64,000 nt of DNA from NCBI GenBank assembly GCA_964625945.1, contig CAZVDP010000011.1:112-64111 (forward strand), given 5' to 3'. This document shows, piece by piece, positions 4,668 to 60,578 of this stretch. The notes under the pieces are model-generated. The model saw nothing but the letters and a program-made list of their open reading frames with translations. It was not told the origin of the DNA and ran no database searches. Each line of letters opens with the position of its first letter. Positions within the stretch are counted from its first letter, which is position 1. This stretch comes from an uncultured Dehalococcoidia bacterium (lineage in GTDB: Bacteria; Chloroflexota; Dehalococcoidia; Lucifugimonadales; UBA1127). The translations under genes and the position numbers were made by a program.

Positions 4668-5591
4668 TTGGAACAAGACTATGGCCTCCCTCTATTAGAG
4701 GCAGCTCACCAAACTGGCATATTTATTGCGCCAGGTGACTTCCCAAGAGAATCCACTGCAATTGTTAATGGACTAAACCTGCACTACCTCGACTGGGGAA
4801 ACCCCAGACACCCTGCTATTGTGTTCATCCATGGGTATGCCCAAAATGCTCACACTTGGGATTTTAGTGCTCTCGCTCTGCGAAATAATTTTCACGTTAT
4901 CGCTATCGACCTGCGCGGACACGGGGAATCGGATTGGTCCTCTCAAAACGATTACAGCATCCAAGCGTATCTGAGCGATCTAACAGAAATGATCAGGCAC
5001 TTAGGACTGCACTCTGTAACCCTTGTGGGTCTTTCGCTAGGAGGCACCATCGCATATTCATTCGCGGCGCTACACCCCGAAAAGATAGACCGATTGGTTG
5101 TGGTCGACACTGGTCCAGAACTAAATACTCGTGGACGGGGACGAATACGGCGGTTCACGAGCAAGTTAGACATCCTGGATTCCTTTGATCTGTTTGTCGC
5201 CCGCGCCATGAAGTACAATTCTCGCCGCCCAGAGTGGCAAATACGTGGCAGCTTGCGTCACAGCCTGAGGAAGCTGCCTGACGGAAGATGGACATGGAAA
5301 TATGACCCCGCACTGAGAGATCCTAAACTGATCGCTCCCAAGAGACCTCAAACTTCTGAGGAACGCTGGACTCTGTGGGAAAGTATCAAGTGCCCTACGT
5401 TGCTAATTAGAGGGGAGCAGAGCGATCTACTGGATAGAACCGTGGCGGAGCGGATGAAGCACACGCTCCCCGGTAGCCAATTTATTGAGGTCGCTGGTTC
5501 AGGCCACCTCGTTCCTGGTGATAAACCTTTGGCTTTCCAGTCCTCACTACTTCGATTCCTCAAGATGGATTCCTGTCTAGATATTCCCTGA
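4668..5591 (+). CDS. alpha/beta-fold hydrolase
   Basis: Track ORF 4647..5591. HG oxyanion motif (FIHGYAQNAHTW), nucleophile elbow GLSLGG, C-terminal GSGHL. Start is uncertain; TTG 4668 sits 7 nt after AGGAG. Confidence 0.7.
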   Translation: MEQDYGLPLLEAAHQTGIFIAPGDFPRESTAIVNGLNLHYLDWGNPRHPAIVFIHGYAQNAHTWDFSALALRNNFHVIAIDLRGHGESDWSSQNDYSIQAYLSDLTEMIRHLGLHSVTLVGLSLGGTIAYSFAALHPEKIDRLVVVDTGPELNTRGRGRIRRFTSKLDILDSFDLFVARAMKYNSRRPEWQIRGSLRHSLRKLPDGRWTWKYDPALRDPKLIAPKRPQTSEERWTLWESIKCPTLLIRGEQSDLLDRTVAERMKHTLPGSQFIEVAGSGHLVPGDKPLAFQSSLLRFLKMDSCLDIP

Positions 5592-5679
5592 TCGTCTGGA
5601 CATTTCTCTGTCGACAATGGTAGCCGCCGGACGTATAATCGCGTATTCGTTCACCATCAATCCTGTTTCGGAGGACTCT

Positions 5680-6141
5680 GTGAATATAGACGTTGGCGCC
5701 AAGGCCCCTGATTTCACCCTGAAATCCGACCAGAATCAAGACATCTCTCTGGCGTCCTACTGCGGATCAAAGATTGCCATCCTCGCATTCTTTCCTTTTG
5801 CGTTTACGGGTGGCTGAGCACATGAACTAACTTCTTTTCGGACTCGCCACAAGGAGTTCGAAGAGCTAAATGCTCAAGTCTTGGGCATCAGCGTGGATAG
5901 CCGGCACTCTCTCAAACAATTTGGTAGCGGCTTGGGAGGCTTGCCCTTTCCCTTAATAGCAGACTTCTTCCCCCATGGAGCAGTCGCGAAAGATTATGGG
6001 GTTTTTAATGAAGAGAATGGCGCATCCCGACGTGCTGTCTTCATCGTTGACAAGAGTGGAGCAGTGCAATGGGCAAAGGTGTACTCAAGCCCACCAGACA
6101 TGGATGAATTGCTACAAGCTATCCGGCACTTGGTTGAGTGA
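5680..6141 (+). CDS. AhpE/1-Cys-type peroxiredoxin with in-frame TGA (5815-5817) at the peroxidatic Cys position; probable selenocysteine-containing peroxiredoxin
   Basis: Track ORFs 5617..5817 and 5881..6141 share one frame and are separated only by TGA 5815-5817 plus 21 open codons. Read-through gives VNIDVGAKAPDFTL...AILAFFPFAFTGG-U-AHELTSF...FPLIADFFPHGAVAKDYGVFNEE...RAVFIVDKSG. The likely start is GTG 5680, after GGAGG at 5670-5674. Confidence 0.8.
5829..5858 (+). promoter_or_regulatory. candidate bacterial SECIS hairpin downstream of the in-frame UGA
   Basis: AACUUCUU (5829-5836) pairs with AAGGAGUU (5851-5858): 8 bp including one G.U. The 14-nt loop UUCGGACUCGCCAC carries GG at 5840-5841, 25 nt from the UGA. 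Found by eye only. Confidence 0.4.
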
Positions 6142-6198
6142 CGCGATAAGAAGACATCGGTTACCGAGGCAAACCAATTAGAGTAGCACGGGGATCAC

Positions 6199-7428
6199 CT
6201 AAAGCCGTCGCGCTTGGGGCATGATCAGACTAATTACGAAAATTAGAATCAGACAAATCGACCCCATAAGGATCAAAGCCGAAGACGCTCCGGCAGCATC
6301 AGCAATAAATCCGGCCAGCGCACTCCCAAGTGGCATAAGCGCGTGATCTAAATGATATGCACTCATAACCCTCCCTTGAAGCGGTACAGGCGTGATCTTC
6401 AAGATAAGTGTATTCCCGGACGTCATGAATAAGGACTGGCTCGCGCCAATCAGTACCATCACAACGAATGCTAACCCAACCCAAGGGACAGATCCCAACA
6501 CTATCAATAGGGATCCAAACAACACCCCCCCACCTACTAGTAACCATCCTTTTCTTTTAACATCTCCCATGGAGGCAACTGCCAATCCGCCGGATAAAGC
6601 GCCGAAGCCAGCCGCGGACAGCAACAGTCCATAGCCACCTGGGCCAATTCCAAACACGGTGTCAGAAATTACCGGGAGCAGCGTGTTGTAGGGCATAGCG
6701 AAGGTAAATACTACGAGAGAGGTAAGAATTAACGACAAGATATTCCGACTATGGATAACATAGCTGATGCCCTCAAGTAATTGTTTCTTAGCGCCTCCTG
6801 TAATCAAGCTGCGCCCTTCTGAACCTCTCAAGAGCAAAGTCGTGACGACAACGAGCAAGAAAATGGTTGCCGCCGCGGCATAGGCAAATCGGACGTCTCC
6901 TCCATCCTTCCAAATGAGCAACCCGCCAAGGGCTGGACCAAGCACGCGCGTGGAATTGGTCGCGACATGATTCAGTCCCATCGCATTTAGCAAGAGATGC
7001 GATGGGACAAGGCGCGGGACAAGCGACTGCCGCGCTGGCTGATTGAACGCCATCGAGCATCCCATGAGTCCAGCCGCGACATACACATGCCAGATTTCAA
7101 CACGTCCCGATACCACTAATAGGAACATCCCTAGATATCCTGCGAAGCTGACGGTCTGACAGCATAATAGGACGACTTTCTTATTGAACCTATCAGCGGC
7201 CAATCCCGCTGGAAGAGCTAAGAAAACTTGCGGCAGAGAACGAACAAGGTTAGTGAGGCCAATGTCTAACGCCGAACCGGTTAGCTTCCATACGAGCCAG
7301 TTCCTAGCAATGTTCTCCATCCACATCGCTCCGGACCAGCCCAGCATGCCAACCCAGACCAGACTAAAATCACGATATTTCAACGATAAGAAAATATCTC
7401 TCAGTGGTTTGCGCGGAGCATCAGACAC
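6199..7428 (-). CDS. MFS transporter
   Basis: Track ORF 6199..7473. About 12 hydrophobic segments and an MFS-like N-terminus (YRDFSLVWVGMLGW). GTG at 7428 overlaps the upstream gene's TAG by 1 nt (TAGTG), which suggests the coupled start. ATG 7473 is the alternative. Confidence 0.8.
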   Translation of the reverse strand: MSDAPRKPLRDIFLSLKYRDFSLVWVGMLGWSGAMWMENIARNWLVWKLTGSALDIGLTNLVRSLPQVFLALPAGLAADRFNKKVVLLCCQTVSFAGYLGMFLLVVSGRVEIWHVYVAAGLMGCSMAFNQPARQSLVPRLVPSHLLLNAMGLNHVATNSTRVLGPALGGLLIWKDGGDVRFAYAAAATIFLLVVVTTLLLRGSEGRSLITGGAKKQLLEGISYVIHSRNILSLILTSLVVFTFAMPYNTLLPVISDTVFGIGPGGYGLLLSAAGFGALSGGLAVASMGDVKRKGWLLVGGGVLFGSLLIVLGSVPWVGLAFVVMVLIGASQSLFMTSGNTLILKITPVPLQGRVMSAYHLDHALMPLGSALAGFIADAAGASSALILMGSICLILIFVISLIMPQARRL

Positions 7429-10593: not shown

Positions 10594-11337
10594 ATGTCCT
10601 CCCCTGGAATGTTTCTAGCCAAACGGTTAAAAGCGCGCGCACTCCAAAAGCTAATCGAAGAACCAAGTGAGTTGCATGCGGCAGGACATACACTTTATCG
10701 AAAGCCTGGCAGCTGTATCTCTTCTAGCATCATAAGTCCAGAATTAGCTGCCTTCCTTGAACCTTACATAGCTCGCTCAGACTCGGGCGCAGTTGTTCTC
10801 TGGGATCATCCACGCGGCTATCTTATCCTGCCACCCTTCCCGGTCGAACAAGATGTCACTCTCCAGGGGTGGGACCTCGCCCCCTTGAAGGAGATAATGA
10901 GTAAACAATTAGTGATTGGTGTGATCTTAATCAGATTGGGGCGCTATGCGATCGGGGTCTATCGTGGGCAAACTCTCATTTCGTCAAAGACGGAAGGTAG
11001 ATACGTCCACGGGCGAAACCGAGCAGGAGGATCTTCACAGCGACGGTTTGAGAGACGCCGCCAAAAACAGATTGACCAACTCTTCGACAAAGTATGTCAC
11101 ATGGTCCGGAGTCACCTGGCGCCCTACGAAAAGCAACTAGAGCACCTCTTCCTAGGCGGGGAAGCCCACACTATCCGCTCTTTCCTGAAACACTGTGACA
11201 CTATCGACCAATTTACACCGCGGATCCGCCGTCCGATATTAAATATGCGCTCACCAAACCAAGCCTCCCTCGAAGAGGCAAGAACTGAGATCTGGGGAGG
11301 TCAAGTCTACGTGATATCTGAAGAGCCTCTCCCATAG
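10594..11337 (+). CDS. eRF1-central-domain-like protein (VLRF1/baeRF1-type; putative peptidyl-tRNA hydrolase or ribosome-rescue factor)
   Basis: The loop YVHGRNRAGGSSQRRFERRRQKQIDQLF resembles the eRF1 segment HGRGGQSALRFARLR and the Vms1 GxxQ loop. Starts 3 nt after the rsmI stop. Confidence 0.55.
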   Translation: MSSPGMFLAKRLKARALQKLIEEPSELHAAGHTLYRKPGSCISSSIISPELAAFLEPYIARSDSGAVVLWDHPRGYLILPPFPVEQDVTLQGWDLAPLKEIMSKQLVIGVILIRLGRYAIGVYRGQTLISSKTEGRYVHGRNRAGGSSQRRFERRRQKQIDQLFDKVCHMVRSHLAPYEKQLEHLFLGGEAHTIRSFLKHCDTIDQFTPRIRRPILNMRSPNQASLEEARTEIWGGQVYVISEEPLP

Positions 11338-25468: not shown

Positions 25469-26272
25469 TCAGGCGGCGGTCCTAGCGCTTTCCTCACTTG
25501 CGAACCATCTGAAAAAGATGATCGCTAATACCGCTATAAGGACGATGCCCGACGCACTCTTCATAATGAGTCCGCCTATCTGCTGATCAGTCAAAACAGA
25601 AATACCCCAAATTCCAGTTCCTTTAGCGTAAAAGCTGTAAAGTGGCTCACCGGCAAAGGTGATGATTGCACCAAGGAACCCCATTGGGATGGACTGTGCA
25701 AATAGATACAACATTTGTACAGAAGGATGCGGTCGGGGCAACTGTTCCAGCGACCCTAAAAGCGGCCACCACGCGATGAGTCCAACAATCATGAAGCTGA
25801 CGTGCTGTGAGATATGCACGTTGTGGTTCTCAAGGGCCAGATCGTACAAAGGGGGGAGGTGCCAACCCACTAAGGCGACATTGAATAGAATGAAAGCTCC
25901 GAGAGGATGTACACATATCCTCAAAACTCTCATCATCCCCTTGTGCTTCAGGGCCGGCCATAAAAGTGCACCCGGAGCACCAAGCAGGATCAGTGGCGGC
26001 ATCACAAACTGGAGCATGAGATGTTGAATCATATGCGCACTGAACAGATAGCCCTCAGCCAGGTCATGTAGCGGCCCTTGTACGGCTAAAAACACCGTTG
26101 TGAAGCCCATAAATGTCATCACGAGACGCCACGGTTCGACAGGCAACTTCCGAGATTGGCGCCACAGTCGCGCAAGCCCGTAGAGGTAAGCAGAGGCCAA
26201 CATTAGCAGCCCGACTATTACGCTAGGATGAAGCTCCCAATTCGTCCAAGAGAAACTGTTCGGGAACACCAA
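25469..26272 (-). CDS. ctaG: caa3-type cytochrome c oxidase assembly factor CtaG (membrane)
   Basis: Polytopic membrane protein with FSAHMIQHLMLQFVMPPLILLGAP, characteristic of the Caa3_CtaG family. Last gene of the cox operon. Confidence 0.75.
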   Translation of the reverse strand: MVFPNSFSWTNWELHPSVIVGLLMLASAYLYGLARLWRQSRKLPVEPWRLVMTFMGFTTVFLAVQGPLHDLAEGYLFSAHMIQHLMLQFVMPPLILLGAPGALLWPALKHKGMMRVLRICVHPLGAFILFNVALVGWHLPPLYDLALENHNVHISQHVSFMIVGLIAWWPLLGSLEQLPRPHPSVQMLYLFAQSIPMGFLGAIITFAGEPLYSFYAKGTGIWGISVLTDQQIGGLIMKSASGIVLIAVLAIIFFRWFASEESARTAA

Positions 26273-26307
26273 AATAGCCCAGGCCTTCCATACTACACAT
26301 TAGCAAT

Positions 26308-26598
26308 CTAACTGAGCAGGCTGAACAATCCCAATAAAGCCAGCATGACAAACGCTGCCAGAAAGAGACAACCTACAAAAAACCATGAGAGTAAGCGATG
26401 GTCAAATTTCAAATGCATGTAGAACATCACAACCAGCGCGAACTTAGCAGCCGATAGAATCATAAAGATCGGGAACAGAAGCGCACTCAGCGCGTCGACA
26501 TACAAGATCGCCACTTCTACAACAGTAACCGCAGCAAGAATACTTGCGACTTTCAGATAGGTCAGTGGGGTAGGATGCCCTGTACCACTCTTTCCCAT
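26308..26598 (-). CDS. prokaryotic cytochrome c oxidase subunit IV
   Basis: 96 aa, 3 TM helices, N-terminus HPTPLTYLKVASILAAVTVVEV typical of COX4_pro. Position within the cox operon. Confidence 0.65.
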   Translation of the reverse strand: MGKSGTGHPTPLTYLKVASILAAVTVVEVAILYVDALSALLFPIFMILSAAKFALVVMFYMHLKFDHRLLSWFFVGCLFLAAFVMLALLGLFSLLS

Positions 26599-26647
26599 GT
26601 CATTTCCTTGAACGGAATTTAGGTCGCCTCTCTAGGCCTCAACCTAG

Positions 26648-26860
26648 TTATACATCATCCTTGACCATACGGATCGCTAAGAAAGCTATAGCTGGTACCA
26701 GCAGGACAAGCGCTACGCCGACAATCACTGCTCCCCATTCACCGAGTCCTGTCTCGTTCAAAGCAATGAACAAGCCACCGATTCCCCCACCCCACAGGAC
26801 AACCAACACGATTGACGTAATAGGGAGAAAGAAGATTAAAGGTATGCGAAAGATACGCAT
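26648..26860 (-). CDS. small 2-TM membrane protein of unknown function within the cox operon
   Basis: 70 aa. The ATG lies 2 nt after the ctaE TAG (tagtaATG). Two hydrophobic helices. No family recognised. Confidence 0.4.
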   Translation of the reverse strand: MRIFRIPLIFFLPITSIVLVVLWGGGIGGLFIALNETGLGEWGAVIVGVALVLLVPAIAFLAIRMVKDDV

Positions 26861-26862
26861 TA

Positions 26863-27474
26863 CTAAGAAACTCCGATCAGATAGATAAGTGTGAAAATCA
26901 CGATCCAGACGATGTCGACGAAATGCCAGTAAAGCGCGGCCATATCGACATTTAGCGCGTGGTCTTTCGTCAGATCACGTTTGAATGAAATCCCAATGAG
27001 AGAGAGTAACCAGATCACGCCAATGGTCACGTGCGCCCCATGAAACCCCGTTAATGTGAAGAAGGTCGATCCAAAGAGATTGGTCCGGGGCGTTAGGTGG
27101 TAATGCTGCGAGAACTCATAGAACTCAAACACCTGAAATCCGAGGAATGTAGCCCCCAGAATCGCCGTCCCAAGTAGCCATATCCGAAACGCCTTAACGC
27201 GCCCATGGCTAATAGCGTTATACGCCAAGACCATCATGAAGCTGCTGATCAGCAACACGAAGGTGCTTGCCGAGGTGACTGGAATGCTGAAAACGTCCGT
27301 CGGGGTCGGACCTACAACGCTTTTCCCGGCGTAAATTAAGTACGTAACTATCAGGGAGCCAAAGAACATGCAATCCGAGGCTAGAAATAGCCAGACTAAC
27401 ATCTTCCGGTGGTCTATTCCGGTCGACGTCACTTCCTGATGGACACTTTCAGTCGCAGTCACCCGTTGCGCCAA
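26863..27474 (-). CDS. ctaE: cytochrome c oxidase subunit III
   Basis: 5-TM heme-copper oxidase subunit III pattern (FFTLTGFHGAHVTIG, YWHFVDIVW). TTG start after AAGGAGG. Confidence 0.9.
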   Translation of the reverse strand: MAQRVTATESVHQEVTSTGIDHRKMLVWLFLASDCMFFGSLIVTYLIYAGKSVVGPTPTDVFSIPVTSASTFVLLISSFMMVLAYNAISHGRVKAFRIWLLGTAILGATFLGFQVFEFYEFSQHYHLTPRTNLFGSTFFTLTGFHGAHVTIGVIWLLSLIGISFKRDLTKDHALNVDMAALYWHFVDIVWIVIFTLIYLIGVS

Positions 27475-27490
27475 CTAAGGCCTCCTTAAT

Positions 27491-29386
27491 TCACCCGTGT
27501 ACTTCATCGGCTGCGGGTTCAAGTGCCCACCCGTAAATACCAATGAGTGTCAGAGCCAAACCTAGCACGGATAGGATTGGCGCATGCCCGAATCCAAAGT
27601 CGTAGATAAATCCAAACGAACCTATAAATAAACCAACCGAAGCAACTAGAGGATAGTAAGAAAGCCCGGGAAGATGGATGCCACGCTTGTGGGCTCCCTC
27701 AGGACCATACGATTCGCCCTTCCCGTCCTCGTTCTGAAGGGAGGCCCCTGTTCCCTGCACCGTCGCGGAACCCTCTGGGTATTTCTGTTCCCAAAACGCG
27801 TCTCTGCTATGAACCTGTGGGATCTCTACAAAGTTATAAATCGGCGGGGGTGATGGTATCGACCATTCCAGGGTCCGGCCGTCCCACGGGTCATTGCCCG
27901 CAAGCTCACCTTTCCGAATACTGCGGAGCATATTGTGAAGAAAAACCAGCATTGAGAAGGCTATGAGAAAGGCACCCACGGTCGCCATCATATTGCCTAA
28001 CTCCCAGCCCATCCCCTCTTGGTAGGTATAGACCCGTCGTGGCATCCCATCGAGGCCCACGATGTGCATGGGGAAAAAGGTAATATTGAACGCGATCATA
28101 GTAGACCAGAAGTGCAGTTTCCCAAGCCCCTCATGCATTAAGCGTCCAGTAAACTTCGGGAACCAGTAGTATATGCCGGTGAATAGGGCGAAAATGCTTC
28201 CCCCAAAGAGCACATAGTGAATGTGGGCGACAATAAAATACGTGTCTTGCTGCTGGGCGTCGCTTGGAGCGATAGAGTGCATCACGCCGCTCAAACCCCC
28301 AATGATAAACATCGAAATGAACCCGAGAGCGAATAGCATAGGTGTATTCAATTTTATTGACCCGCCCCACAAAGTCGCCATCCAGTTGAAAATCTTGACC
28401 CCTGTGGGGATCGCTATACTCATCGTGGTGAGTGTAAATATCGTATTTGCAACCGTACCTAAACCCACAGTAAACATGTGATGGCTCCATACCATCCAAC
28501 CCATGAATCCAATAACAAGCCCAGAGAAAACAACAACAGGGTACCCGAACAACGGCTTTCTGGAAAACGTAGGTAAAACCTCCGATACGATCCCCATCGC
28601 TGGCAATATCAGGATGTAGACTTCTGGGTGTCCAAAAACCCAGAACAAGTGTTGCCACAATACGGGACTTCCGCCAGCCTCGGGATTGAAAAAGTTCGTG
28701 CCATAAAACCGATCAAAGCCCAGCTCGATAAGGCCCACTGTGATAACCGGGAAAGCCGTAATTATAAGAAACATCGTAATCAAGCTCATCCATATGAAGA
28801 CTGGCATCCGCATCAGACTCATGCCTGGCGCCCGCATGTTGACGATCGTAACGATGAAGTTCAATGCCGCTGCAGTTGATGAGACCCCAAGCACAGCAAG
28901 GCCCAAGACATAGAAATCCATCCCTTGGTCCGGCGAGAATGTCGTACTGGTCAGGTTCGCATAAGCAAACCACCCTGCCGCAGGCGACGAGCCAGCGAGC
29001 CAACCCCAGTTCAGGAGCAGGCCGCCACCCAGAAAAGTCCAGTAACTAAATGCGTTAAGACGGGGGAAGGCCACGTCCCGTGCCCCGATCATCAATGGGA
29101 TCACAAAGTTGAAGAAAGCTGCTCCTAGTGGCATCACGCCCAGGAAGATCATTGTGAGAGCGTGCATCGTGAAGAGTTGATTGTAGAGATGGGGCTCAAT
29201 TAGTGCCTGCTCAGGCTGCGCGAGCTGGAGGCGCATGATCAGTGCCTCTACACCCCCGATAAGGAAAAACACAAGTGCTGTGGCGCCATAGAGGATCCCT
29301 ATCCGCTTGTGATCCACCGTGGTAAGCCAACCCCATATGCCTCGATAGCCCGTCGGGCGTGCGAACGCGCCAGCTAAGGTCACCAT
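27491..29386 (-). CDS. ctaD: cytochrome c oxidase subunit I (with a 2-TM C-terminal extension)
   Basis: WFFGHPEVYILILP-type motif (VFGHPEVYILILP), WSHHMF, AHIHYVLFGG. RBS GGAGGA. Confidence 0.97.
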   Translation of the reverse strand: MVTLAGAFARPTGYRGIWGWLTTVDHKRIGILYGATALVFFLIGGVEALIMRLQLAQPEQALIEPHLYNQLFTMHALTMIFLGVMPLGAAFFNFVIPLMIGARDVAFPRLNAFSYWTFLGGGLLLNWGWLAGSSPAAGWFAYANLTSTTFSPDQGMDFYVLGLAVLGVSSTAAALNFIVTIVNMRAPGMSLMRMPVFIWMSLITMFLIITAFPVITVGLIELGFDRFYGTNFFNPEAGGSPVLWQHLFWVFGHPEVYILILPAMGIVSEVLPTFSRKPLFGYPVVVFSGLVIGFMGWMVWSHHMFTVGLGTVANTIFTLTTMSIAIPTGVKIFNWMATLWGGSIKLNTPMLFALGFISMFIIGGLSGVMHSIAPSDAQQQDTYFIVAHIHYVLFGGSIFALFTGIYYWFPKFTGRLMHEGLGKLHFWSTMIAFNITFFPMHIVGLDGMPRRVYTYQEGMGWELGNMMATVGAFLIAFSMLVFLHNMLRSIRKGELAGNDPWDGRTLEWSIPSPPPIYNFVEIPQVHSRDAFWEQKYPEGSATVQGTGASLQNEDGKGESYGPEGAHKRGIHLPGLSYYPLVASVGLFIGSFGFIYDFGFGHAPILSVLGLALTLIGIYGWALEPAADEVHG

Positions 29387-29460
29387 GAGATTCCTCCAGT
29401 GAGTCTCTCTCCAAAAACGTTCATCTTCTAATGCTTCTCGTTTCCGATCGTAGTGATGAC

Positions 29461-30516
29461 CTAGTCCAGACTCCGCAAAAATGCCACCAAAACTTCAATT
29501 TGCTGTTCATCTAAAGCCAAAGCCGGGTTCGCATAGACTGGAGCTTCCTTAAACATCAGATTGTCTGGCTTCAACTTGTCAGGGTCCCTCAGCCAATCCT
29601 CAAGATTCTCGGCGGTGTTGTCCAAGAGGCCTGCCGCTAGCGTCGTTCGGCTAGCGAAATGTGCCAGATTGGGGCCTGTCCGCACGCGAGGGGTCGAACT
29701 TTCTGTCTCAAGATCCGTAACACCGACAATATGACACAGGGTACAAGCGCCTGCGCCGCGAAATACCGCGAGCCCTTCGACGACCGCAGCTTGATCCGAC
29801 GCAGTAGCGGGCGCCTGCTGGCCGGCAACCCAGTCGGAGAAATCTGCGTCCGAGTGAGCGATCACCCTGAACCTCATCAGGGCATGCGATGTCCCACAGA
29901 GTTCGGCACATTGGCCGAGGTAGGTCCCTTCTGAATTGGGATCAATAGTAAAAGTGGGAAGTCGATTCACGTAGCCCGGAACCATGTCAACTTTCCCTGC
30001 AATCTTCGGGACCCAAAAGCTATGTAAAACGTCCTCAGATTCTAACTGAATGCTAACGGGTCGCCCGACAGGGACGCGGAGTTCGTTAGCAGTCACGAAG
30101 CCGTGATCGGTATACTGAAATTCCCACCACCACTGGTGCGCAATCGCTCGGACATGAAGTGCGTCAGCCGGCGGCTCCTTATCCAATTCCCAAAGCGTGG
30201 ACACGGTTGGGACTGCCAGTCCTGCCAGTAGGATCACAGGAGCGATCGTCCAGGCGATTTCTAAGCGGGTGTTACCATGGGTCTGCACTGGGAGGGTATC
30301 CTGGCCTGGCTTCTTGCGGAATCGAATGATCGTGTAAAGAAGCGCTCCTTGAACCACCACCATCACGAAAATGGCGGCCCCTGTAACCCAGAGGAGAAGG
30401 TCAAGCTGTTTAGCTGCCACATCAGCAACTGGATTAAACGTTGACTGCGTTTGCGTTTTCGAACATGCAGTCAACAGAAATACACCTAGTAAGACGAATG
30501 CGAAGCGTGTTATCAC
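29461..30516 (-). CDS. coxB: cytochrome c oxidase subunit II with fused C-terminal cytochrome c domain (caa3-type)
   Basis: CuA site HSFWVP...CAELCGTSHALM. Heme-c motif CTLCH in the C-terminal domain. Confidence 0.93.
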   Translation of the reverse strand: MITRFAFVLLGVFLLTACSKTQTQSTFNPVADVAAKQLDLLLWVTGAAIFVMVVVQGALLYTIIRFRKKPGQDTLPVQTHGNTRLEIAWTIAPVILLAGLAVPTVSTLWELDKEPPADALHVRAIAHQWWWEFQYTDHGFVTANELRVPVGRPVSIQLESEDVLHSFWVPKIAGKVDMVPGYVNRLPTFTIDPNSEGTYLGQCAELCGTSHALMRFRVIAHSDADFSDWVAGQQAPATASDQAAVVEGLAVFRGAGACTLCHIVGVTDLETESSTPRVRTGPNLAHFASRTTLAAGLLDNTAENLEDWLRDPDKLKPDNLMFKEAPVYANPALALDEQQIEVLVAFLRSLD

Positions 30517-30656
30517 CGCGCACCTCTTGCGCGCTTAACGGAATTGTTGGCATTTTGAGGGGAAGATTGTGGAATTTTACACATATTCTGCAGCGCCCCA
30601 CGATACCAGACAGCAGGAATCCCGTCAAGATGTTCCTGGTTATGCTAGACTAGCTG

Positions 30657-32513
30657 GTGGACGACTACATGGGACATCTGCCAATACAAAATCGACACCG
30701 AGCCCCCAAGCAGAGCTCTAACCCCACACACGGATATCCTCAAATTTATAAACACAATCGAAACAACGGGCTCGCAATCTTGGTCTCGGCTGCCATCATC
30801 TCCGTGTTAGCCCTCATAACCTTGGGTGGAACTGTCCGCGTCACTGAGTCAGGCCTCGGATGCCCCGACTGGCCCCTCTGCCACGGCAGCCTGATTGCAC
30901 CTGCGGGCTTCCACACATGGATAGAGTTCTCGCACCGGCTGGTCGCTACCGTCGTGGCATTCTTCGTTTTTTCAGCTACCGTCTTTGCCTACAAGATCAA
31001 TCGCGGCCCCTCACACACTCGGGCAGCGTTGCTGTTGGCTTCTATTTTGGTAGTGGTCGAGATTTTAGTCGGTGGATTGACCGTCCTGACTGAACTGCCC
31101 CCGGCCACGGTAACACTCCATCTAGGCATCGCACAGATTATTTTTTCGTCCTTAATTCTCGCGCTTGTCCCTCTTTTATTGATAAGACCTACGCCACTCC
31201 CAGTAGGATCGCCACTACTACGATGGGCTACTCTCTCAATCGTTATGACTTTAGTCACTACACTCGTCGGCTCCTACGTAGTTGGAGCAGGCGCTTCTGG
31301 AGCTTGCCCCGATTGGCCTTCATGCGGCGCACTCGATAACATCCTCGCGTGGAAGCATATGGCTCATCGGTTTCTGGCTATCATTTTGGTTCTGGCAGTC
31401 GGGGGATTCGTATGGGTTGCTTGGTCTTACAGACATTCCAAACAGATCCGCCGCATCAGCCTAGTCGCTTCCGTATTTTTACTCGCACAGATCGCGATGG
31501 GAGCGGCGATCCCATGGAGCGACTTCGGGGCATTGCCTCGAATATTACACCTTACGCTTGCAACCACATTGCTGGGCTCATTGGTGGCTGCATTTTACCT
31601 AGGTTGGTCAGCTGAGCATCATTCCCTTCCTTCTGAAGCACCACGCCTTCAGGATCAATTGCTTGACTACCTGCGGCTCACGAAACCACCAATCATTGTC
31701 CTGTTGATGATCACCGCGTTCGGCAGTATGTTCCTCGCTGCTAAGGGCGTCCCTCAACCGAGTGTGATGCTGACTGTGCTTATTGGCGGAAGCATGGCAG
31801 CCGGTGGAGCTAGTACTTTGAACCATGTCCTAGAGAGAAACAGTGACGCCATGATGCGAAGAACAAGACGGCGCCCAGTCGCTTCCAATAGGGTGACTCC
31901 GGCTCGAGCGACGGTATTTGGACTGGGGCTAAACTGTGTTGCTTTTATGATATTCGTAGTTGGCGCGAACCCATTGAGCGCGTTTTTATCGATAGCTGCC
32001 AGTGCATTCTACGTTATTATCTATACGCTATGGCTCAAACGCTCAACACACCAGAACATTGTCATTGGGGGTGCAGCAGGTGCGCTGCCCCCTGTAATTG
32101 GCTGGGCAGCAGTAACAGGAAGTGTCGACCTGAATGCACTTTACCTGTTCTCCATTATTTTCTTCTGGACTCCCCCACATTTCTGGGCGCTAGCGTTGCT
32201 CATTAAAAGCGACTACGCGCTTGCGAAAATTCCAATGCTCCCCGTAGTGAAGGGCGAAGCAACAACCATCAGGAGCATTCTCTTGCATTCAATTCTTCTC
32301 GTTACCATAAGCCTTTTATTTACAACTCTAGGAACGGTTGGAATTATCTATCTGGCTACCGCGTCTGTCCTCGGATCTGGATTGCTCTGGTTGTGCTGGC
32401 GATTGTTGCGTGATGGTGGCGTACGTGCCGCGCGACGTCTCTATCTCTACTCTCTCTTATATCTCGCTCTACTTTTTGGGTGCATGATCCCTGATAGCAT
32501 CTTGGCCATATAG
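30657..32513 (+). CDS. ctaA-ctaB: fused heme A synthase (CtaA/COX15) and protoheme IX farnesyltransferase (CtaB/heme O synthase)
   Basis: The N-terminal half has the CtaA Cys pairs GLGCPDWPLCHG and SGACPDWPSCG. The C-terminal half, from about LDYLRLTKPPIIVLL, is UbiA-type CtaB. The start is ambiguous (GTG 30657 or ATG 30669). Confidence 0.9.
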   Translation: MDDYMGHLPIQNRHRAPKQSSNPTHGYPQIYKHNRNNGLAILVSAAIISVLALITLGGTVRVTESGLGCPDWPLCHGSLIAPAGFHTWIEFSHRLVATVVAFFVFSATVFAYKINRGPSHTRAALLLASILVVVEILVGGLTVLTELPPATVTLHLGIAQIIFSSLILALVPLLLIRPTPLPVGSPLLRWATLSIVMTLVTTLVGSYVVGAGASGACPDWPSCGALDNILAWKHMAHRFLAIILVLAVGGFVWVAWSYRHSKQIRRISLVASVFLLAQIAMGAAIPWSDFGALPRILHLTLATTLLGSLVAAFYLGWSAEHHSLPSEAPRLQDQLLDYLRLTKPPIIVLLMITAFGSMFLAAKGVPQPSVMLTVLIGGSMAAGGASTLNHVLERNSDAMMRRTRRRPVASNRVTPARATVFGLGLNCVAFMIFVVGANPLSAFLSIAASAFYVIIYTLWLKRSTHQNIVIGGAAGALPPVIGWAAVTGSVDLNALYLFSIIFFWTPPHFWALALLIKSDYALAKIPMLPVVKGEATTIRSILLHSILLVTISLLFTTLGTVGIIYLATASVLGSGLLWLCWRLLRDGGVRAARRLYLYSLLYLALLFGCMIPDSILAI

Positions 32514-34557: not shown

Positions 34558-35046
34558 CTACCGCACTCGACTCACCGCGAGCGCCCCGGCAACAATAACC
34601 CCCGCGATAGTGTAGAGATTCTGAGGCGCCAGATACGGCGTAGAGGCCTCGAATCCAATATAGACCATGAGGACACTTCCGAAGGCTAGGGCGCGAAACG
34701 CTTTTCTAGTTTCAAGCCTACCAATCGCGTTAATTACATCACCGATTATGTGTCCCGCCGCCAGCAAGCCTACGAACAAGATAATCCAACTGAAACTATG
34801 TGGAACAAATTGGGCGGCAACGCCCAGCAAGAGGCCGATGCCCAAACCGATCCCAATGCCGGCAACTAAGCCGAGCATATAAGTTTTTCCGACAAGCCTG
34901 AGAGCCATAATTGGATTTCGAGCACCTGCGCAGGAAGGACATCGCGAGCCCACGATTGTAACAACATTGCACTTCACGCAGATTGGCCGGTCACACTTAC
35001 CGCATTTGAGCAGCGTTTCAACTCGACGATGAGCAGCACAATACAC
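34558..35046 (-). CDS. B-box-type zinc-ribbon membrane protein, function unknown
   Basis: N-terminal Cys cluster CAAH...CGKCDRPICVKC...CPSC, followed by about 4 TM helices. Confidence 0.5.
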   Translation of the reverse strand: MYCAAHRRVETLLKCGKCDRPICVKCNVVTIVGSRCPSCAGARNPIMALRLVGKTYMLGLVAGIGIGLGIGLLLGVAAQFVPHSFSWIILFVGLLAAGHIIGDVINAIGRLETRKAFRALAFGSVLMVYIGFEASTPYLAPQNLYTIAGVIVAGALAVSRVR

Positions 35047-42143: not shown

Positions 42144-43544
42144 ATGAATGATCAACCCCAAGAGGCCTGTGGGATCGTCGGCATTTACTCTCCGGAAGGT
42201 AATGCAGCAAGAACGGCCTTCTTCGGCTTGTTCTCGTTACAGCACCGTGGACAAGAAAGTGCTGGTATCGGCACTAATGACGGCCACAATTTCCACCTCC
42301 ACACTGAGATGGGGCTCCTGAACCAAGCATTTCACGAGTTCGATCTCCACAGACTGCCCGGTGACTTCGCCATAGGGCACACACGCTACTCAACAACCGG
42401 TGAAAGTAGCAAGGCCAACGCACAACCGATTGCCGTCCAAGGACTCCATGGCCAGATCCTTCTTGGGCACAATGGCAACTTGATAAACGCTCTAGACTTG
42501 CGGCGAGAAATGGCGACTAGTTGGGACTGCAACTTTGCTACCTCCACCGATTCTGAGGTGATCGCCCAAATGCTCGTGAACGCTCCGGGTAAGAATTGGG
42601 GAGAACGCATCTCCTACCTATTCCGAAAACTTCAGGGGGCATACTCTTTAGTCGTTTTACTGGATGACGGAATCCTAGCGATCAGGGACCCATTAGGAGT
42701 CCGCCCTCTTTGCATCGGCCAATTGGGCGACGGCTGGGTTGTCGCTTCAGAGAGTTGTGCCTTGGATAACCTTGGTGCACGCTTTATGCGAGAAGTCGAA
42801 GCCGGAGAAGGGGTATTTATAGGCGCCCAAGGGCCCGAAACCCTTTACCAAACCCAAGAAGGCCAAAAGGGTCACTGCGTATTTGAAACCATCTACTTCG
42901 CTCGCCCAGATAGCAACCTAGAGGGAAAACTAGTGTACGTATCCAGACAAGAAATGGGGCGCCAACTAGCGAGAGAGCATCCTGTCGATGCTGATGTGGT
43001 AATCGCCATACCCGACTCAGCAAACCCTGCAGCCGTGGGCTACGCGCAAGAGTCCGGCATCGCGTACCGTGAAGGCCTCGTCAAGAACCGATACGTCGGG
43101 CGTACTTTTATCGAGCCTGACCAGCGAATTAGAGATATTGGGGTCCGCCTTAAATTTAACCCCCTCCCCGCAGTGCTTGAAGGCCAGCGAGTGGTCGTAG
43201 TTGACGACAGCATTGTGCGTGGGACTACGACGCCGCATGTTGTCAATCTGATACGTCAAGCTGGCGCTCGAGAGGTGCACCTAAGGGTCTGTGCCCCTCC
43301 CATAATCTCTCCCTGTTATTTCGGAGTTGACTTTGCAACACGTGCCGAACTGATCGGGGCGAACATGACAATCCCAGAAATTTGTCAGTTCGTCGGTGCC
43401 GATTCTCTTGGCTATCTGACACTAGATGGACTGTTCAAAGCAATAGACGCTTCACCAACAAACTACTGCTATGGGTGTTTCTCAGGAAGATACCCCATTG
43501 ATATCCAATTGGACCTTGACAAGCTGATTCTGGAGAAAGCCTAG
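42144..43544 (+). CDS. purF: amidophosphoribosyltransferase
   Basis: Ntn Cys in EACGIVGIY, PRPP loop VVVVDDSIVRGTT, Fe-S Cys context CYFGVD. Confidence 0.95.
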   Translation: MNDQPQEACGIVGIYSPEGNAARTAFFGLFSLQHRGQESAGIGTNDGHNFHLHTEMGLLNQAFHEFDLHRLPGDFAIGHTRYSTTGESSKANAQPIAVQGLHGQILLGHNGNLINALDLRREMATSWDCNFATSTDSEVIAQMLVNAPGKNWGERISYLFRKLQGAYSLVVLLDDGILAIRDPLGVRPLCIGQLGDGWVVASESCALDNLGARFMREVEAGEGVFIGAQGPETLYQTQEGQKGHCVFETIYFARPDSNLEGKLVYVSRQEMGRQLAREHPVDADVVIAIPDSANPAAVGYAQESGIAYREGLVKNRYVGRTFIEPDQRIRDIGVRLKFNPLPAVLEGQRVVVVDDSIVRGTTTPHVVNLIRQAGAREVHLRVCAPPIISPCYFGVDFATRAELIGANMTIPEICQFVGADSLGYLTLDGLFKAIDASPTNYCYGCFSGRYPIDIQLDLDKLILEKA

Positions 43545-43579: not shown

Positions 43580-44617
43580 ATGCGAGCAATGAGCACTACT
43601 AATTACGATGACGCCGGCGTGAATCGGTCTTCTGCAAACCGCGCCAAGCAGCGTATCTTCGATTTGGCACGCGGCACATTTACGCCCGGCGCCATCGGAG
43701 ACATCGGCTTTTTCGGCTCGGCCTTTCAGGTACAAGGGTTCGACGACCCGATCCTGATTTCTCACACAGACGGGGTTGGAACCAAAACACGTGTGGCAGG
43801 CCTAATGGGGAACTTTGACTCCATCGGCGTGGACATCGTCCATCACTGTGTTAACGACATTTTGACATGCCGGGCACGTCCTTTGTTTTTCCTCGACTAC
43901 ATTGGGCTAGGGTCCATGGTGCCTGAAACCGTTGAAGGAATCGTTGAAGGGATCACGAAAGCCTGTAAAGCTGTCGGGTGTGCATTGATCGGTGGTGAAA
44001 CTGCCGAGTTGGCCGACATTTATCACGCGGGTGATCTCGACCTTGTCGGTTTCATTGTAGGGGCCGTTGAAAAGACAGACCTTCCTCAAATTGACAACGT
44101 TTCTAGCGGCGATGTGCTCTTGGGGCTCCCTTCAAGCGGACTGCACACGAACGGCTTCACTCTGGTTCGCAAAGTTTTCAATATTGATAACGATCCTTCA
44201 GTGCTTCGCGCACACGTCCCTGAACTGAACGGCTCTCTTGGCGAATGCCTGCTTATCCCACACCGTTGTTATTACAATGACCTCTCACCGGTGCTACGTG
44301 AAATTAAAGCCATGGCCCATATCACGGGCGGAGGCTTTTTCGATAACATCGCCCGCTGTTTACCCGTAGACGTATCCGCGTCCATCGACGCCTCCACCTG
44401 GGAAGTCCCTCCACTCTTTCGGCTCATACAAGAGCGGGGAAAGGTGACTACCGAAGAAATGTTCAGCGTGTTTAATATGGGCGTCGGAATGGTCCTAATC
44501 GCTGCTCCCGAGGACGTCGCTGCGATCCAAGAATCGGTCGCCGAAGCCTGGGTTATTGGCGAGGTTGTCGCGCGTGACGGGGGCGATGCCGTGTCGATTG
44601 AGAAAGTGAGGGAGTAG
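43580..44617 (+). CDS. purM: phosphoribosylformylglycinamidine cyclo-ligase
   Basis: YDDAGVN, SHTDGVGTK, GGETAE motifs. ATG 43589 is an alternative start. Confidence 0.95.
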   Translation: MRAMSTTNYDDAGVNRSSANRAKQRIFDLARGTFTPGAIGDIGFFGSAFQVQGFDDPILISHTDGVGTKTRVAGLMGNFDSIGVDIVHHCVNDILTCRARPLFFLDYIGLGSMVPETVEGIVEGITKACKAVGCALIGGETAELADIYHAGDLDLVGFIVGAVEKTDLPQIDNVSSGDVLLGLPSSGLHTNGFTLVRKVFNIDNDPSVLRAHVPELNGSLGECLLIPHRCYYNDLSPVLREIKAMAHITGGGFFDNIARCLPVDVSASIDASTWEVPPLFRLIQERGKVTTEEMFSVFNMGVGMVLIAAPEDVAAIQESVAEAWVIGEVVARDGGDAVSIEKVRE

Positions 44618-59784: not shown

Positions 59785-60396
59785 CTACGCGCTCTTCGCC
59801 CTGATACTAAGGCCCCCCAGCACCAGGTTGGTCAGCATGAATCCTATCCATCCGGCGAACCCTAGCGTGTCCGCATCGACAAAGCTACCAAGAAGCAGAA
59901 TGCCTCCTGCGATGACCGCTAAAGCAGCCGCGCCAACGTGGAAATTCTTGGCTAGGGCGATACCTGCTCCAAGCATAAGTACTAAGACGCCCATTGCAAG
60001 CTGGAACGCCCCCTCCATCGCAAGAGAAACGCCTGCGAGAGTCACTCCGCCTGCGGCCGACGTGGCCTCAGCAATGCCGTACTCGAGACCCAAGTTCATT
60101 ACCAAGCCGGCGACCATTGCCATGCCGAGTACCGTTGCAACGTTTCCGTAAAAGGATCCCGCACCGCCTGCCATAGCCATGCTTCGAGTTATATTTAGAA
60201 CTCCTATAAATACAGCTAACATCCCGCCGTATCCCAAGAGTATCCCTACCTTGGCAGTGCTCGCGTCCGCCATAATTGCCTGTGCTCTCTCCACAGCGCC
60301 CGTTTGTCCGTCATCAGGGTAAAAACCAAACCATCCGACAAAGGACACAATCGTACCGAGCACGAGCAATAACCCTGTTTGCATACTTGATCCCAT
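59785..60396 (-). CDS. Gly/Ala-rich polytopic membrane protein, unknown function
   Basis: Track ORF 59785..60459. ATG 60396 follows AAGGAGG with a 6-nt spacer. About 6 hydrophobic helices. Confidence 0.45.
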   Translation of the reverse strand: MGSSMQTGLLLVLGTIVSFVGWFGFYPDDGQTGAVERAQAIMADASTAKVGILLGYGGMLAVFIGVLNITRSMAMAGGAGSFYGNVATVLGMAMVAGLVMNLGLEYGIAEATSAAGGVTLAGVSLAMEGAFQLAMGVLVLMLGAGIALAKNFHVGAAALAVIAGGILLLGSFVDADTLGFAGWIGFMLTNLVLGGLSIRAKSA

Positions 60397-60578
60397 GACA
60401 TACCTCCTTAATTCATCCGAAACCATAGTTTTTCGTTTTCCATTCCAAGGCGCCGCCAATCACAACCGGACCTGTTCTTTCGTCGTGATTACCCGCCGCA
60501 GGTAATCCGATCGATAAGCAGTGGCCGCTACACAGTTGTCCGCAGTGCGTTGTTAGAAAGACCGGCGCGAATTCGCGA

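What the first reader, a model, noticed from the sequence alone, without database searches (positions are those of the whole stretch)
5617..6141. Peroxiredoxin with in-frame UGA exactly at the peroxidatic cysteine: probable selenoprotein split by ORF calling
Seen in the sequence: track ORFs 5617..5817 and 5881..6141 are in the same reading frame, and a single TGA (5815-5817) is the only interruption. Reading through gives one 153-residue protein: VNIDVGAKAPDFTLKSDQNQDISLASYCGSKIAILAFFPFAFTGG[TGA]AHELTSFRTRHKEFEELNAQVLGISVDSRHSLKQFGSGLGGLPFPLIADFFPHGAVAKDYGVFNEENGASRRAVFIVDKSGAVQW... Established knowledge: AhpE-type and 1-Cys peroxiredoxins carry the catalytic Cys in F-(P)-x-x-F-T-x-x-C-x-x-E (M. 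tuberculosis AhpE, as I recall it, reads FFPLAFTGICQGEL). The TGA occupies exactly that Cys position, and the family-conserved block continues after it, which a decaying pseudogene would not be expected to preserve. TGA is otherwise used as a normal stop here (tatA, the 4668..5591 hydrolase, and this gene's own terminator). An 8-bp hairpin (5829-5836 / 5851-5858) with GG in the apical loop, 25 nt from the UGA, fits the general geometry of bacterial SECIS elements. Sec-peroxiredoxins are already known from metagenomic selenoproteome surveys, so the family is not new. This locus would nevertheless be mis-annotated as two fragments or a pseudogene.
Basis: partly seen in the sequence, partly recalled or inferred. 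Interest (0 to 1): 0.7.

Follow-up and report, generated by a model that had tools for sequence, protein, structure and literature searches.

The report
Selenocysteine peroxiredoxin gene split by UGA
This is one intact gene for an AhpE-like peroxide-detoxifying enzyme whose catalytic cysteine is replaced by selenocysteine (encoded by an in-frame UGA followed by a conserved RNA hairpin); the enzyme family is already known, but gene callers routinely cut it into two fragments.

Summary
Window 5680..6141 (+) is one 153-codon AhpC/TSA peroxiredoxin gene (GTG start, GGAGG 5 nt upstream). Its only interruption is TGA 5815-5817, which aligns exactly with the peroxidatic Cys45 of M. tuberculosis AhpE. 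The same TGA sits at the same codon in at least 120 species-level genomes, mostly Acidobacteriota and Chloroflexota, and in several metagenome contigs. Every complete copy is otherwise intact. dN/dS is as low downstream of the TGA (0.06-0.28) as upstream. A 12-bp hairpin (5834-5845/5854-5865, loop GCCACAAG, 28 nt after the UGA, -16.1 kcal/mol) meets the published bacterial SECIS model. It is conserved with compensatory changes in 32 Chloroflexota-type orthologs. The window holds no selA, selB, selD or tRNA-Sec, so Sec machinery in this genome is untested. The host is a Chloroflexota bacterium, and its class is documented to use Sec. Sec-peroxiredoxins (PxxxTxxU) have been known since 2001, and 'FTGGU' forms appear in the 2005 Sargasso Sea survey. 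This is therefore a new member of a known kind. Public gene calls do split or mistranslate it, and no NCBIfam selenoprotein model covers it.

The parts
5670..5674 (+). Shine-Dalgarno-like GGAGG, 5 nt upstream of the GTG start
   Evidence: Read from the sequence. Orthologs start at the equivalent position (MAVEVGQ, MTIEIGN, MAIEAGK).
5680..6141 (+). Complete Sec-peroxiredoxin (AhpE-like) gene: 153 codons plus TGA stop, with one in-frame UGA
   Evidence: Pfam AhpC-TSA at 9e-36 spanning residues 5-131. Best PDB relatives are Mtb AhpE at 4e-33. Intact orthologs occur in at least 120 genomes.
5794..5808 (+). Codons for the active-site P39-F-A-F-T43 of the PxxxTxxU motif
   Evidence: P39 is invariant and position 43 is T or S in 31 aligned Sec and Cys homologs.
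5815..5817 (+). UGA codon 46, inferred selenocysteine at the peroxidatic position
   Evidence: Aligns with Cys45 of AhpE and with Cys in 13 of 13 Cys homologs. TGA is conserved at this codon in all 130 loci examined.
5834..5865 (+). SECIS-type hairpin inside the coding sequence: 5' arm 5834-5845, apical loop GCCACAAG 5846-5853, 3' arm 5854-5865
   Evidence: It is the core of the minimum-energy fold of 5815-5880 (-21.7 kcal/mol, z = -3.4). The hairpin alone is -16.1 kcal/mol with 12 bp, an 8-nt loop starting with G, and 28 nt between the UGA and the loop, which meets the published bSECIS criteria. In 32 orthologs, 76-88% of cells pair against at most 58% in slid controls, and columns 30/41 show CG:13 vs GC:13.
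6031..6033 (+). Codon for catalytic Arg118, equivalent to AhpE Arg116 (AhpE numbering from my own knowledge)
   Evidence: Invariant R in 31 of 31 aligned homologs. It aligns with the Arg in ANRGTF of AhpE.
6139..6141 (+). True stop codon (TGA), with no SECIS-like hairpin after it
   Evidence: The 66 nt from this TGA fold at only -9.0 kcal/mol.

Best explanation
Window 5680..6141 encodes a single 153-residue, 1-Sec peroxiredoxin of the AhpE-like branch of the AhpC/TSA family in a Chloroflexota bacterium. During translation, UGA 5815-5817 is recoded as selenocysteine. The hairpin 5834-5865, whose apical loop starts 28 nt after the UGA, acts as a bacterial SECIS. It is bound by SelB.GTP.Sec-tRNA(Sec), which delivers Sec to the ribosomal A site in competition with release factor 2. 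The product carries Sec46 in the PxxxTxxU active site with Thr43 and Arg118. The selenolate attacks a hydroperoxide to give a selenenic acid. Because this lineage has no conserved resolving Cys, an external thiol partner reduces it back. Shown here: gene integrity, the exact U/C correspondence, conservation of the TGA, selection on both sides of it, and the existence, consensus fit and covariation of the hairpin. Inferred: SelB binding, actual Se incorporation, the peroxidase chemistry and the identity of the reductant.
For: The TGA is the sole interruption of an AhpC-TSA domain. It aligns with the peroxidatic Cys of AhpE and of 13 of 13 Cys homologs, with the catalytic P, T/S and R invariant. 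All 118 complete copies have a full-length frame with that single TGA. Syntenic orthologs L001 and L002, and lineages at 50-62% identity (L003/L004/L034, L005-L009), keep the TGA while neighbouring codons change synonymously. In unsaturated pairs dN/dS is 0.06-0.28 downstream of the TGA and 0.02-0.15 upstream. The hairpin folds at z = -3.4 and satisfies all four published bSECIS constraints. In orthologs 87.7% of cells pair against at most 50% in slid registers, the covariation score is 0.228 against at most 0.089, 0 of 500 shuffles reach the observed value, and there is a CG/GC swap at columns 30/41. TGA is a normal stop elsewhere in the window. The host is Chloroflexota, and Dehalococcoidia MAGs with 46-49 selenoproteins are on record. 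Sec-Prx with a TxxU motif is an experimentally established family, and FTGGU forms were reported in 2005.
Against: No tRNA-Sec, selA, selB or selD was found in the 64-kb window or in about 1 Mb of related loci. The Sec-decoding capacity of this particular genome is therefore assumed, not shown. No Rfam family matches the hairpin. RNAalifold with default settings did not recover the hairpin from the alignment, probably because the lower stem has two registers. [quoted passage not shown] Part of the nucleotide conservation in the hairpin could reflect amino-acid constraint, because it lies in coding sequence. There is no experimental evidence of Se incorporation for this subfamily.
Confidence: 0.9

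Rival explanations
1. Pseudogene: a Cys codon (TGC/TGT) mutated to TGA and the gene is decaying, so the two ORFs are remnants.
For: No Sec machinery is visible in the window. Gene callers treat the locus as two fragments.
Against: The same TGA is present in at least 120 species across several phyla, with no other lesion in any complete copy. dN/dS downstream of the TGA is 0.06-0.28, which indicates translation. A conserved, covarying hairpin follows the TGA. The window copy differs by about 38% in amino acids from its nearest relatives, yet keeps the frame, the catalytic Arg118 and the hairpin.
Confidence: 0.03
2. UGA is decoded without selenium. Either near-cognate read-through inserts Trp or Cys, or termination gives a 45-residue peptide with a separate downstream product, and the hairpin merely stimulates read-through or ribosome pausing.
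For: Se incorporation was not measured. Many Chloroflexota-type hairpins fall outside the canonical bSECIS loop rules. One public gene call translates the codon as W.
Against: Trp at the peroxidatic position would abolish catalysis, while the rest of the active site stays under selection. The U/C correspondence with Cys homologs is the standard signature of a selenoprotein (method described). The window's hairpin fits the SelB-type SECIS geometry. Sec-Prx with this PxxxTxxU motif is biochemically established. The W in P0001 fails to reproduce under table 11 and so reflects an alternative-code gene call, not a TGG codon.
Confidence: 0.05
3. Genetic-code reassignment (TGA read as Trp or Gly throughout the genome), or a sequencing or assembly error at this one base.
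For: Short contigs carrying the ortholog were called with TGA read as W.
Against: TGA terminates 16 of 53 long ORFs in the window, including tatA, the adjacent hydrolase and this gene itself. Independent assemblies from many projects show the same TGA.
Confidence: 0.01

Closest known systems
Selenocysteine-containing peroxiredoxin (Prx selenoprotein family, PF00578, PxxxTxxU). This includes the metagenomic 'Prx' selenoproteins of Zhang and Gladyshev (PMC1088965, PMC1794560, PMC5029168) and the review listing in PMC13188914.
   Same: AhpC/TSA domain, Sec at the peroxidatic position in TxxU, Cys-containing homologs, and a bacterial SECIS hairpin just downstream within the ORF. Sargasso Sea entries AACY01494158 and AACY01800057 carry the same FPxAFTGGU motif.
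   Different: The window copy is a new sequence, at most 62% identical to anything found. It comes from an aerobic Chloroflexota bacterium. The Chloroflexota branch uses a long 12-14 bp hairpin rather than the short G-loop hairpin of the Acidobacteriota branch.
Mycobacterium tuberculosis AhpE (Rv2238c), a 1-Cys peroxiredoxin (PDB 1XXU, 1XVW, 4X0X, 5ID2)
   Same: It is the closest solved structure (E = 4e-33, 117 bits, alignment over 135 residues). The lengths match (153 aa), as do the FFPxAFTGxC/U-xxEL motif and the catalytic Arg, and neither has a conserved resolving Cys.
   Different: Sec replaces Cys45. The host is Chloroflexota, not Actinobacteria, so the mycothiol/mycoredoxin-1 reducing system described for AhpE (my own knowledge) probably does not apply. 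Identity is only about 45%.
PrxU of Eubacterium acidaminophilum (NCBIfam NF040737), the experimentally verified Sec-peroxiredoxin
   Same: Sec at the peroxidatic position of a peroxiredoxin. It is the best NCBIfam hit.
   Different: The window protein scores 81.8 bits against a cutoff of 270. PrxU is a 233-position profile of the typical 2-Cys/AhpC type, whereas the window protein is a 153-aa AhpE-like protein. It is not an equivalog.
E. coli fdhF-type bacterial SECIS / bSECIS consensus model (criteria as given in PMC13188914, Fig. 2)
   Same: A stem-loop within the ORF directly 3' of the UGA, with 28-nt spacing (allowed 16-37), an 8-nt loop (3-9), a G at loop position 1, a 12-bp stem (4-16) and -16.1 kcal/mol (at or below -7.5).
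   Different: There is no sequence similarity and no Rfam match. The window hairpin has no bulge, while most Chloroflexota orthologs have a one-nucleotide bulge at alignment column 47.

Membership tests
Sec-containing peroxiredoxin (Prx selenoprotein, PF00578, PxxxTxxU) | AhpC/TSA (thioredoxin-fold peroxiredoxin) domain | tested here: met
   PF00578 at 9.2e-36, 122.9 bits against a cutoff of 26, profile positions 1-123 of 124, spanning the TGA.
Sec-containing peroxiredoxin (Prx selenoprotein, PF00578, PxxxTxxU) | In-frame UGA at the peroxidatic position of PxxxTxxU, aligned with Cys in Cys homologs | tested here: met
   P39-F-A-F-T43-G-G-U46. It aligns with Cys45 of AhpE. With Sec masked as X, it aligns with Cys in 13 of 13 Cys homologs.
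Sec-containing peroxiredoxin (Prx selenoprotein, PF00578, PxxxTxxU) | Conserved catalytic Arg | tested here: met
   R118 is invariant in 31 of 31 aligned sequences.
Sec-containing peroxiredoxin (Prx selenoprotein, PF00578, PxxxTxxU) | Bacterial SECIS stem-loop downstream of the UGA that fits the bSECIS model | tested here: met
   Spacing 28 nt, loop GCCACAAG, 12 bp, -16.1 kcal/mol, against the criteria quoted. It is conserved with covariation in 32 orthologs.
Sec-containing peroxiredoxin (Prx selenoprotein, PF00578, PxxxTxxU) | Conservation of the UGA and of the downstream reading frame in orthologs | tested here: met
   All 130 loci examined carry the TGA, and all 118 complete genome copies are intact. 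Downstream dN/dS is 0.06-0.28.
Sec-containing peroxiredoxin (Prx selenoprotein, PF00578, PxxxTxxU) | Sec-decoding machinery (selA, selB, selC, selD) in the same genome | not testable with these tools
   None is present in the 64-kb window, and the rest of the genome is not available. Sec use in the class Dehalococcoidia is documented.
Sec-containing peroxiredoxin (Prx selenoprotein, PF00578, PxxxTxxU) | Selenium actually incorporated into the protein | not testable with these tools
   This requires 75Se labelling or mass spectrometry.
AhpE subfamily of peroxiredoxins (Mtb Rv2238c type) | Closest similarity to AhpE rather than to the AhpC/Prx1, BCP/PrxQ, Tpx or Prx6 classes | tested here: met
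   The seven top PDB sequences are all AhpE (114-118 bits). The next class, 2-Cys Prx, scores 89 bits and BCP scores 76 bits.
AhpE subfamily of peroxiredoxins (Mtb Rv2238c type) | 1-Cys type: no conserved resolving Cys | tested here: met
   The only Cys is C28, and orthologs have F, L or R at that position. The C-terminal ACSR Cys of the Acidobacteriota branch is absent.
AhpE subfamily of peroxiredoxins (Mtb Rv2238c type) | Reduction by mycoredoxin-1/mycothiol | not testable with these tools
   This is a biochemical property and no partner gene is adjacent.
PrxU equivalog (NCBIfam NF040737) | Score at or above the curated cutoff of 270 bits | tested here: not met
   81.8 bits.
Thiol peroxidase Prx-SUH (NCBIfam NF045827) | Score at or above the curated cutoff of 298 bits; CxxU motif | tested here: not met
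   42.9 bits. The motif here is TGGU with no Cys three residues before U.
Prx-like thiol:disulfide oxidoreductase selenoprotein (UxxC) | Thioredoxin-like UxxC redox motif | tested here: not met
   The sequence after U is A-H-E, so there is no Cys at +3.
Any curated Rfam RNA family (including SECIS families) | Covariance-model match over 5600-6200 | tested here: not met
   No match at gathering thresholds and none at E <= 10.

The most novel reading that the evidence does not exclude
The AhpE-like 'FTGGU' peroxiredoxins may form a large, uncurated selenoprotein subfamily (at least 120 species) that current annotation models miss. Its Chloroflexota branch may use a distinct class of SECIS: a long 12-14 bp hairpin, often with a 10-nt loop lacking the canonical G. 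That would imply a SelB recognition mode different from the E. coli paradigm. It would also place a Sec enzyme at the centre of peroxide defence in aerobic Chloroflexota.
Probability: 0.3. Interest if true: 0.4.

Novelty: new member of a known kind. Interest (0 to 1): 0.3.

Why it matters
The practical value is for annotation. A functional antioxidant enzyme is recorded in public data as two short fragments, or with Trp at its catalytic residue, in more than a hundred soil and aquatic Acidobacteriota and Chloroflexota genomes. No NCBIfam selenoprotein model reaches its cutoff on it. Correct annotation changes estimates of selenoproteome size and selenium dependence in these abundant, mostly uncultured lineages, including aerobes with caa3 oxidase. 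The set of more than 120 orthologous UGA-plus-hairpin sequences gathered here could be used to refine bacterial SECIS models, because many of them fall outside the canonical loop rules. It does not reveal a new kind of system.

Tried and rejected
1. Rfam at gathering thresholds on the whole window, and at E <= 10 on 5600-6200: no SECIS or other family matched; only two tRNAs were found in the window.

2. ARAGORN on the window found only tRNA-Arg(TCT) and tRNA-Gly(CCC), with no tRNA-Sec.

3. Pfam on about 50 window ORFs found no SelA or SelB. The one AIRS-fold protein (43580-44617) lies between purF and purH, so it is PurM and not SelD.

4. tblastn with E. coli SelA, SelB and SelD, plus ARAGORN, on the window and 129 related loci (about 1 Mb) gave no hits. 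The sel genes are therefore not linked to this peroxiredoxin. This is a null result.

5. A scan of the window for other ORF pairs joined by an in-frame TGA found no other convincing selenoprotein candidate. The gcvT/gcvH junction is an ordinary stop.

6. An exact-match lookup of the window's phosphoglucomutase, intended to locate the source contig, found nothing on record.

7. RNAalifold on the 32-sequence alignment returned only a trivial 3-bp helix. I then tested explicit structures with the count of structure pairs.

9. My simplified no-bulge bSECIS scorer passes the window but only 26 of 125 orthologs. It is too strict for bulged stems, so I do not use it as a family-level test.

10. P0002, a homolog with Leu at the Sec position, could not be examined because its DNA was not retrievable.

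Full report
**Observation**

The ORF listing gives 5617..5817 (66 aa) and 5881..6141 (86 aa) on the + strand. They share a frame, and translating 5617-6141 shows a single internal stop, TGA at 5815-5817. The biologically sensible start is GTG 5680, preceded by GGAGG at 5670-5674. Orthologs begin at the equivalent position. From that start the read-through product is 153 residues, with the recoded position at residue 46. TGA is otherwise an ordinary stop in this window. It ends tatA, the hydrolase at 5591, this gene itself (6139-6141) and 16 of 53 ORFs of at least 150 aa.

**What the protein is**

With Cys substituted at position 46, the product matches Pfam AhpC-TSA over the whole domain and across the TGA (E = 9e-36, profile positions 1-123 of 124). 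Its closest solved structures are the M. tuberculosis AhpE chains (E = 4e-33, 114-118 bits). The next peroxiredoxin class scores 89 bits. In that alignment FFPFAFTGG[UGA]AHEL lies column for column on FFPLAFTGICQGEL, so the UGA is exactly at the peroxidatic cysteine.

I also aligned 18 Sec forms with 13 Cys homologs, masking Sec as X so that it could not bias the alignment. The X column is Cys in all 13 Cys homologs, and Pro39, Thr/Ser43 and Arg118 are invariant. The only cysteine in the window protein, C28, is not conserved. The protein is therefore a 1-Sec enzyme of the AhpE type.

**Is the UGA conserved?**

It is, and very widely. The protein search returned several fragments of 90-106 aa covering only the C-terminal two-thirds (P0027, P0031, P0115, P0120), and one full-length call with Trp at the critical position (P0001).

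The fetched contigs show a 44-45 aa N-terminal fragment immediately upstream and in frame, separated by TGA at the same codon. L001 is syntenic with the window: AdoHcyase, MetK, PGM, TatA and the hydrolase precede the peroxiredoxin, and an MFS transporter, an esterase and an aminotransferase follow it. Between L001 and L002 the codon before the TGA differs synonymously (GGC vs GGG) while the TGA stays. The Trp in P0001 is an artefact of a gene call made under an alternative code, because the DNA has TGA.

Most are Acidobacteriota (Bryobacterales, Solibacteraceae, Terriglobia) and Chloroflexota (Dehalococcoidia, Tepidiformaceae, Anaerolineaceae). A few are Tectomicrobia, Verrucomicrobiia, Vicinamibacteria, Myxococcaceae and others. 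Every complete copy (118) has a full-length frame with that one TGA and nothing else wrong.

In unsaturated pairs, dN/dS is 0.06-0.28 downstream of the TGA and 0.02-0.15 upstream. The downstream part is therefore translated in this frame. This rules out a pseudogene, a sequencing error and a local accident.

**The RNA element**

The 66 nt from the UGA fold at -21.7 kcal/mol (z = -3.4; 1 of 200 shuffles folds as well). The core is a 12-bp hairpin, 5834-5845 paired with 5854-5865, with the loop GCCACAAG at 5846-5853. The published bacterial SECIS model requires a 3-9 nt apical loop, a 4-16 bp upper stem, a G in the first two loop positions, 16-37 nt between the UGA and the loop, and an MFE of -7.5 kcal/mol or lower (PMC13188914).

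The window hairpin meets all four criteria: an 8-nt loop with G first, 12 bp, 28 nt spacing and -16.1 kcal/mol for the hairpin alone. As background, 61 of 2086 TGA triplets in the window pass the same simplified test, and only 7 of 2086 do so at -15 kcal/mol or lower. None of the 16 genuine TGA stops tested has a downstream fold as stable.

Orthologs show two architectures:
- The Acidobacteriota type is a short hairpin with a 3-nt GGC or GUC loop 23 nt after the UGA.
- The Chloroflexota type, to which the window belongs, is a long 12-14 bp hairpin.

In an ungapped 32-sequence alignment of the Chloroflexota type (A1), the consensus helix (columns 18-30 with 41-54, one bulge at column 47) pairs in 87.7% of cells, against at most 50% in slid registers. 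Its covariation score is 0.228 against at most 0.089, and 0 of 500 shuffles reach the observed values. Columns 30/41 split CG:13 and GC:13. By inspection of A1, that swap couples a synonymous Thr third position to an Arg-to-Ala codon change. The window's own bulge-free register pairs in 76.3% of cells.

It can be drawn but it is not the element.

Four caveats apply:
- No Rfam family matches.
- RNAalifold with default settings missed the helix.
- My no-bulge scorer passes only 26 of 125 orthologs.
- Many Chloroflexota loops are 10 nt long without an early G.

**Sec machinery and host**

The window contains only tRNA-Arg and tRNA-Gly. Pfam annotation of about 50 ORFs found no SelA, SelB or SelD, and the AIRS-fold protein at 43580-44617 is PurM, lying between purF and purH. 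tblastn with E. coli SelA, SelB and SelD, and ARAGORN, on the window and 129 related loci found nothing.

The host is a Chloroflexota bacterium. Its RNase Y is 60-66% identical to Chloroflexi, Dehalococcoidia and SAR202 MAG proteins. The window also carries the Actinobacteria/Chloroflexi-specific acVLRF1 and a full caa3 oxidase cluster, so the organism is aerobic. Dehalococcoidia MAGs with 46-49 selenoproteins are listed in BSepDB (PMC13326102). Chloroflexi and Acidobacteria were already recorded as selenoprotein-containing phyla in 2006, and Solibacter usitatus SelA and SelB sequences are in that paper's supplements (PMC1794560).

**Mechanism**

The most likely mechanism (confidence 0.9) is standard bacterial Sec insertion. 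SelB.GTP.Sec-tRNA(Sec) binds the hairpin 5834-5865 and decodes UGA46. The resulting enzyme uses the Sec46 selenolate, activated by Thr43 and Arg118, to reduce hydroperoxides through a selenenic acid. An external thiol partner then reduces it, because this branch lacks a resolving Cys.

Shown here: gene integrity, the U/C correspondence, conservation of the UGA, selection on both sides, and the presence, consensus fit and covariation of the hairpin. Inferred: SelB binding, Se incorporation, the chemistry and the reductant.

The rivals are a pseudogene (0.03), selenium-independent read-through or termination (0.05), and code reassignment or sequencing error (0.01). All three are disfavoured by the conservation, selection and stop-usage data above.

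**Comparison with what is known**

Sec-peroxiredoxin (PF00578, PxxxTxxU) is an established prokaryotic selenoprotein family. It was verified biochemically in Eubacterium acidaminophilum (Sohling et al. 2001, as cited in PMC13188914). [quoted passage not shown] The Sargasso supplement already lists peroxiredoxins with the motif FPKAFTGGuT (AACY01494158, AACY01800057). The FTGGU subtype is therefore not new.

The window protein is not an equivalog of the curated selenoprotein models. PrxU (NF040737) scores 81.8 bits against a cutoff of 270, and Prx-SUH (NF045827) scores 42.9 against 298. It also lacks the UxxC motif of the Prx-like family. By sequence it belongs with AhpE.

**Verdict**

This is a new member of a known kind. 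It is useful for annotation, because the gene is split or mistranslated in public gene calls and no NCBIfam selenoprotein model reaches its cutoff on it. It is also useful as a data set for SECIS modelling. It would not surprise a selenoprotein specialist. Interest is 0.3.

Noticed in passing
L010-L129 (for example L017, L022, L015), C-terminal about 15 residues of the Acidobacteriota-type orthologs: 80 of 130 Sec-peroxiredoxins, essentially the Acidobacteriota branch, carry a conserved C-terminal Cys in an A-C-S-R motif. The window and the other Chloroflexota-type proteins lack it. This could be a resolving Cys that forms a selenenylsulfide, which would give a 2-Cys-like mechanism in one branch and a 1-Sec mechanism in the other.
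   Followed up: partly
A1 alignment columns 31-40 (equivalent to window 5845-5854) in L028, L055, L090, L096, L101, L120, L123 and others: [quoted passage not shown] They fall outside the published bSECIS constraints even though the stem shows covariation. They may represent a distinct SECIS class.
   Followed up: partly
L003:441-893 and L004:127-579 (protein P0001): A public gene call translates the in-frame TGA as Trp (FTGGWAHEL), apparently because an alternative genetic code was applied to a short contig. This puts a mistranslated selenoprotein into protein databases.
   Followed up: yes
Protein P0002 (ENA ERZ27297709, 896-bp contig): This homolog (46% identity) has Leu at the Sec/Cys position (FAFTGGLKNQV). 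It could be an inactive paralog, an odd translation table or an error. The DNA could not be retrieved.
   Followed up: partly
window 25469-32513: A complete caa3-type cytochrome c oxidase cluster is present: CtaG 25469-26272(-), COX3 26863-27474(-), COX1 27491-29386(-), COX2 29461-30516(-), and a CtaA/CtaB fusion at 30657-32513(+). The organism is therefore aerobic, which fits a need for peroxide defence.
   Followed up: no
window 10594-11337 (+): A 247-aa protein matches acVLRF1 (Actinobacteria/Chloroflexi VLRF1 release factor) and eRF1 domain 2. This is an archaeo-eukaryotic release-factor-like protein in a genome that also recodes UGA. No link between the two was tested.
   Followed up: no
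window 62342-63439 (+): This is a second redoxin-family protein of 365 aa, with AhpC-TSA/Redoxin in the N-terminal half and a Thioredoxin_10 C-terminal domain. It has no in-frame TGA. It might be a thiol partner or an unrelated oxidoreductase.
   Followed up: no
window 5815-5820 with 5871-5876: In the window's minimum-energy fold the UGA itself is paired in a 6-bp outer helix (UGAGCA/UGCUCA) that encloses the SECIS hairpin. By inspection of alignment A1 this outer helix is not conserved in orthologs.
   Followed up: partly
window 34558-35046(-), 59785-60459(-), 60579-61109(-): Three ORFs of 162-224 aa have no Pfam match at E <= 1e-5. ORF 59785-60459 is Gly/Ala/Leu-rich and looks membrane-embedded.
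   Followed up: no
window 43580-44617 (+): This AIRS/AIRS_C protein could be mistaken for SelD in a quick scan. Its position between purF (42144-43544) and purH (44617-46143) identifies it as PurM.
   Followed up: yes
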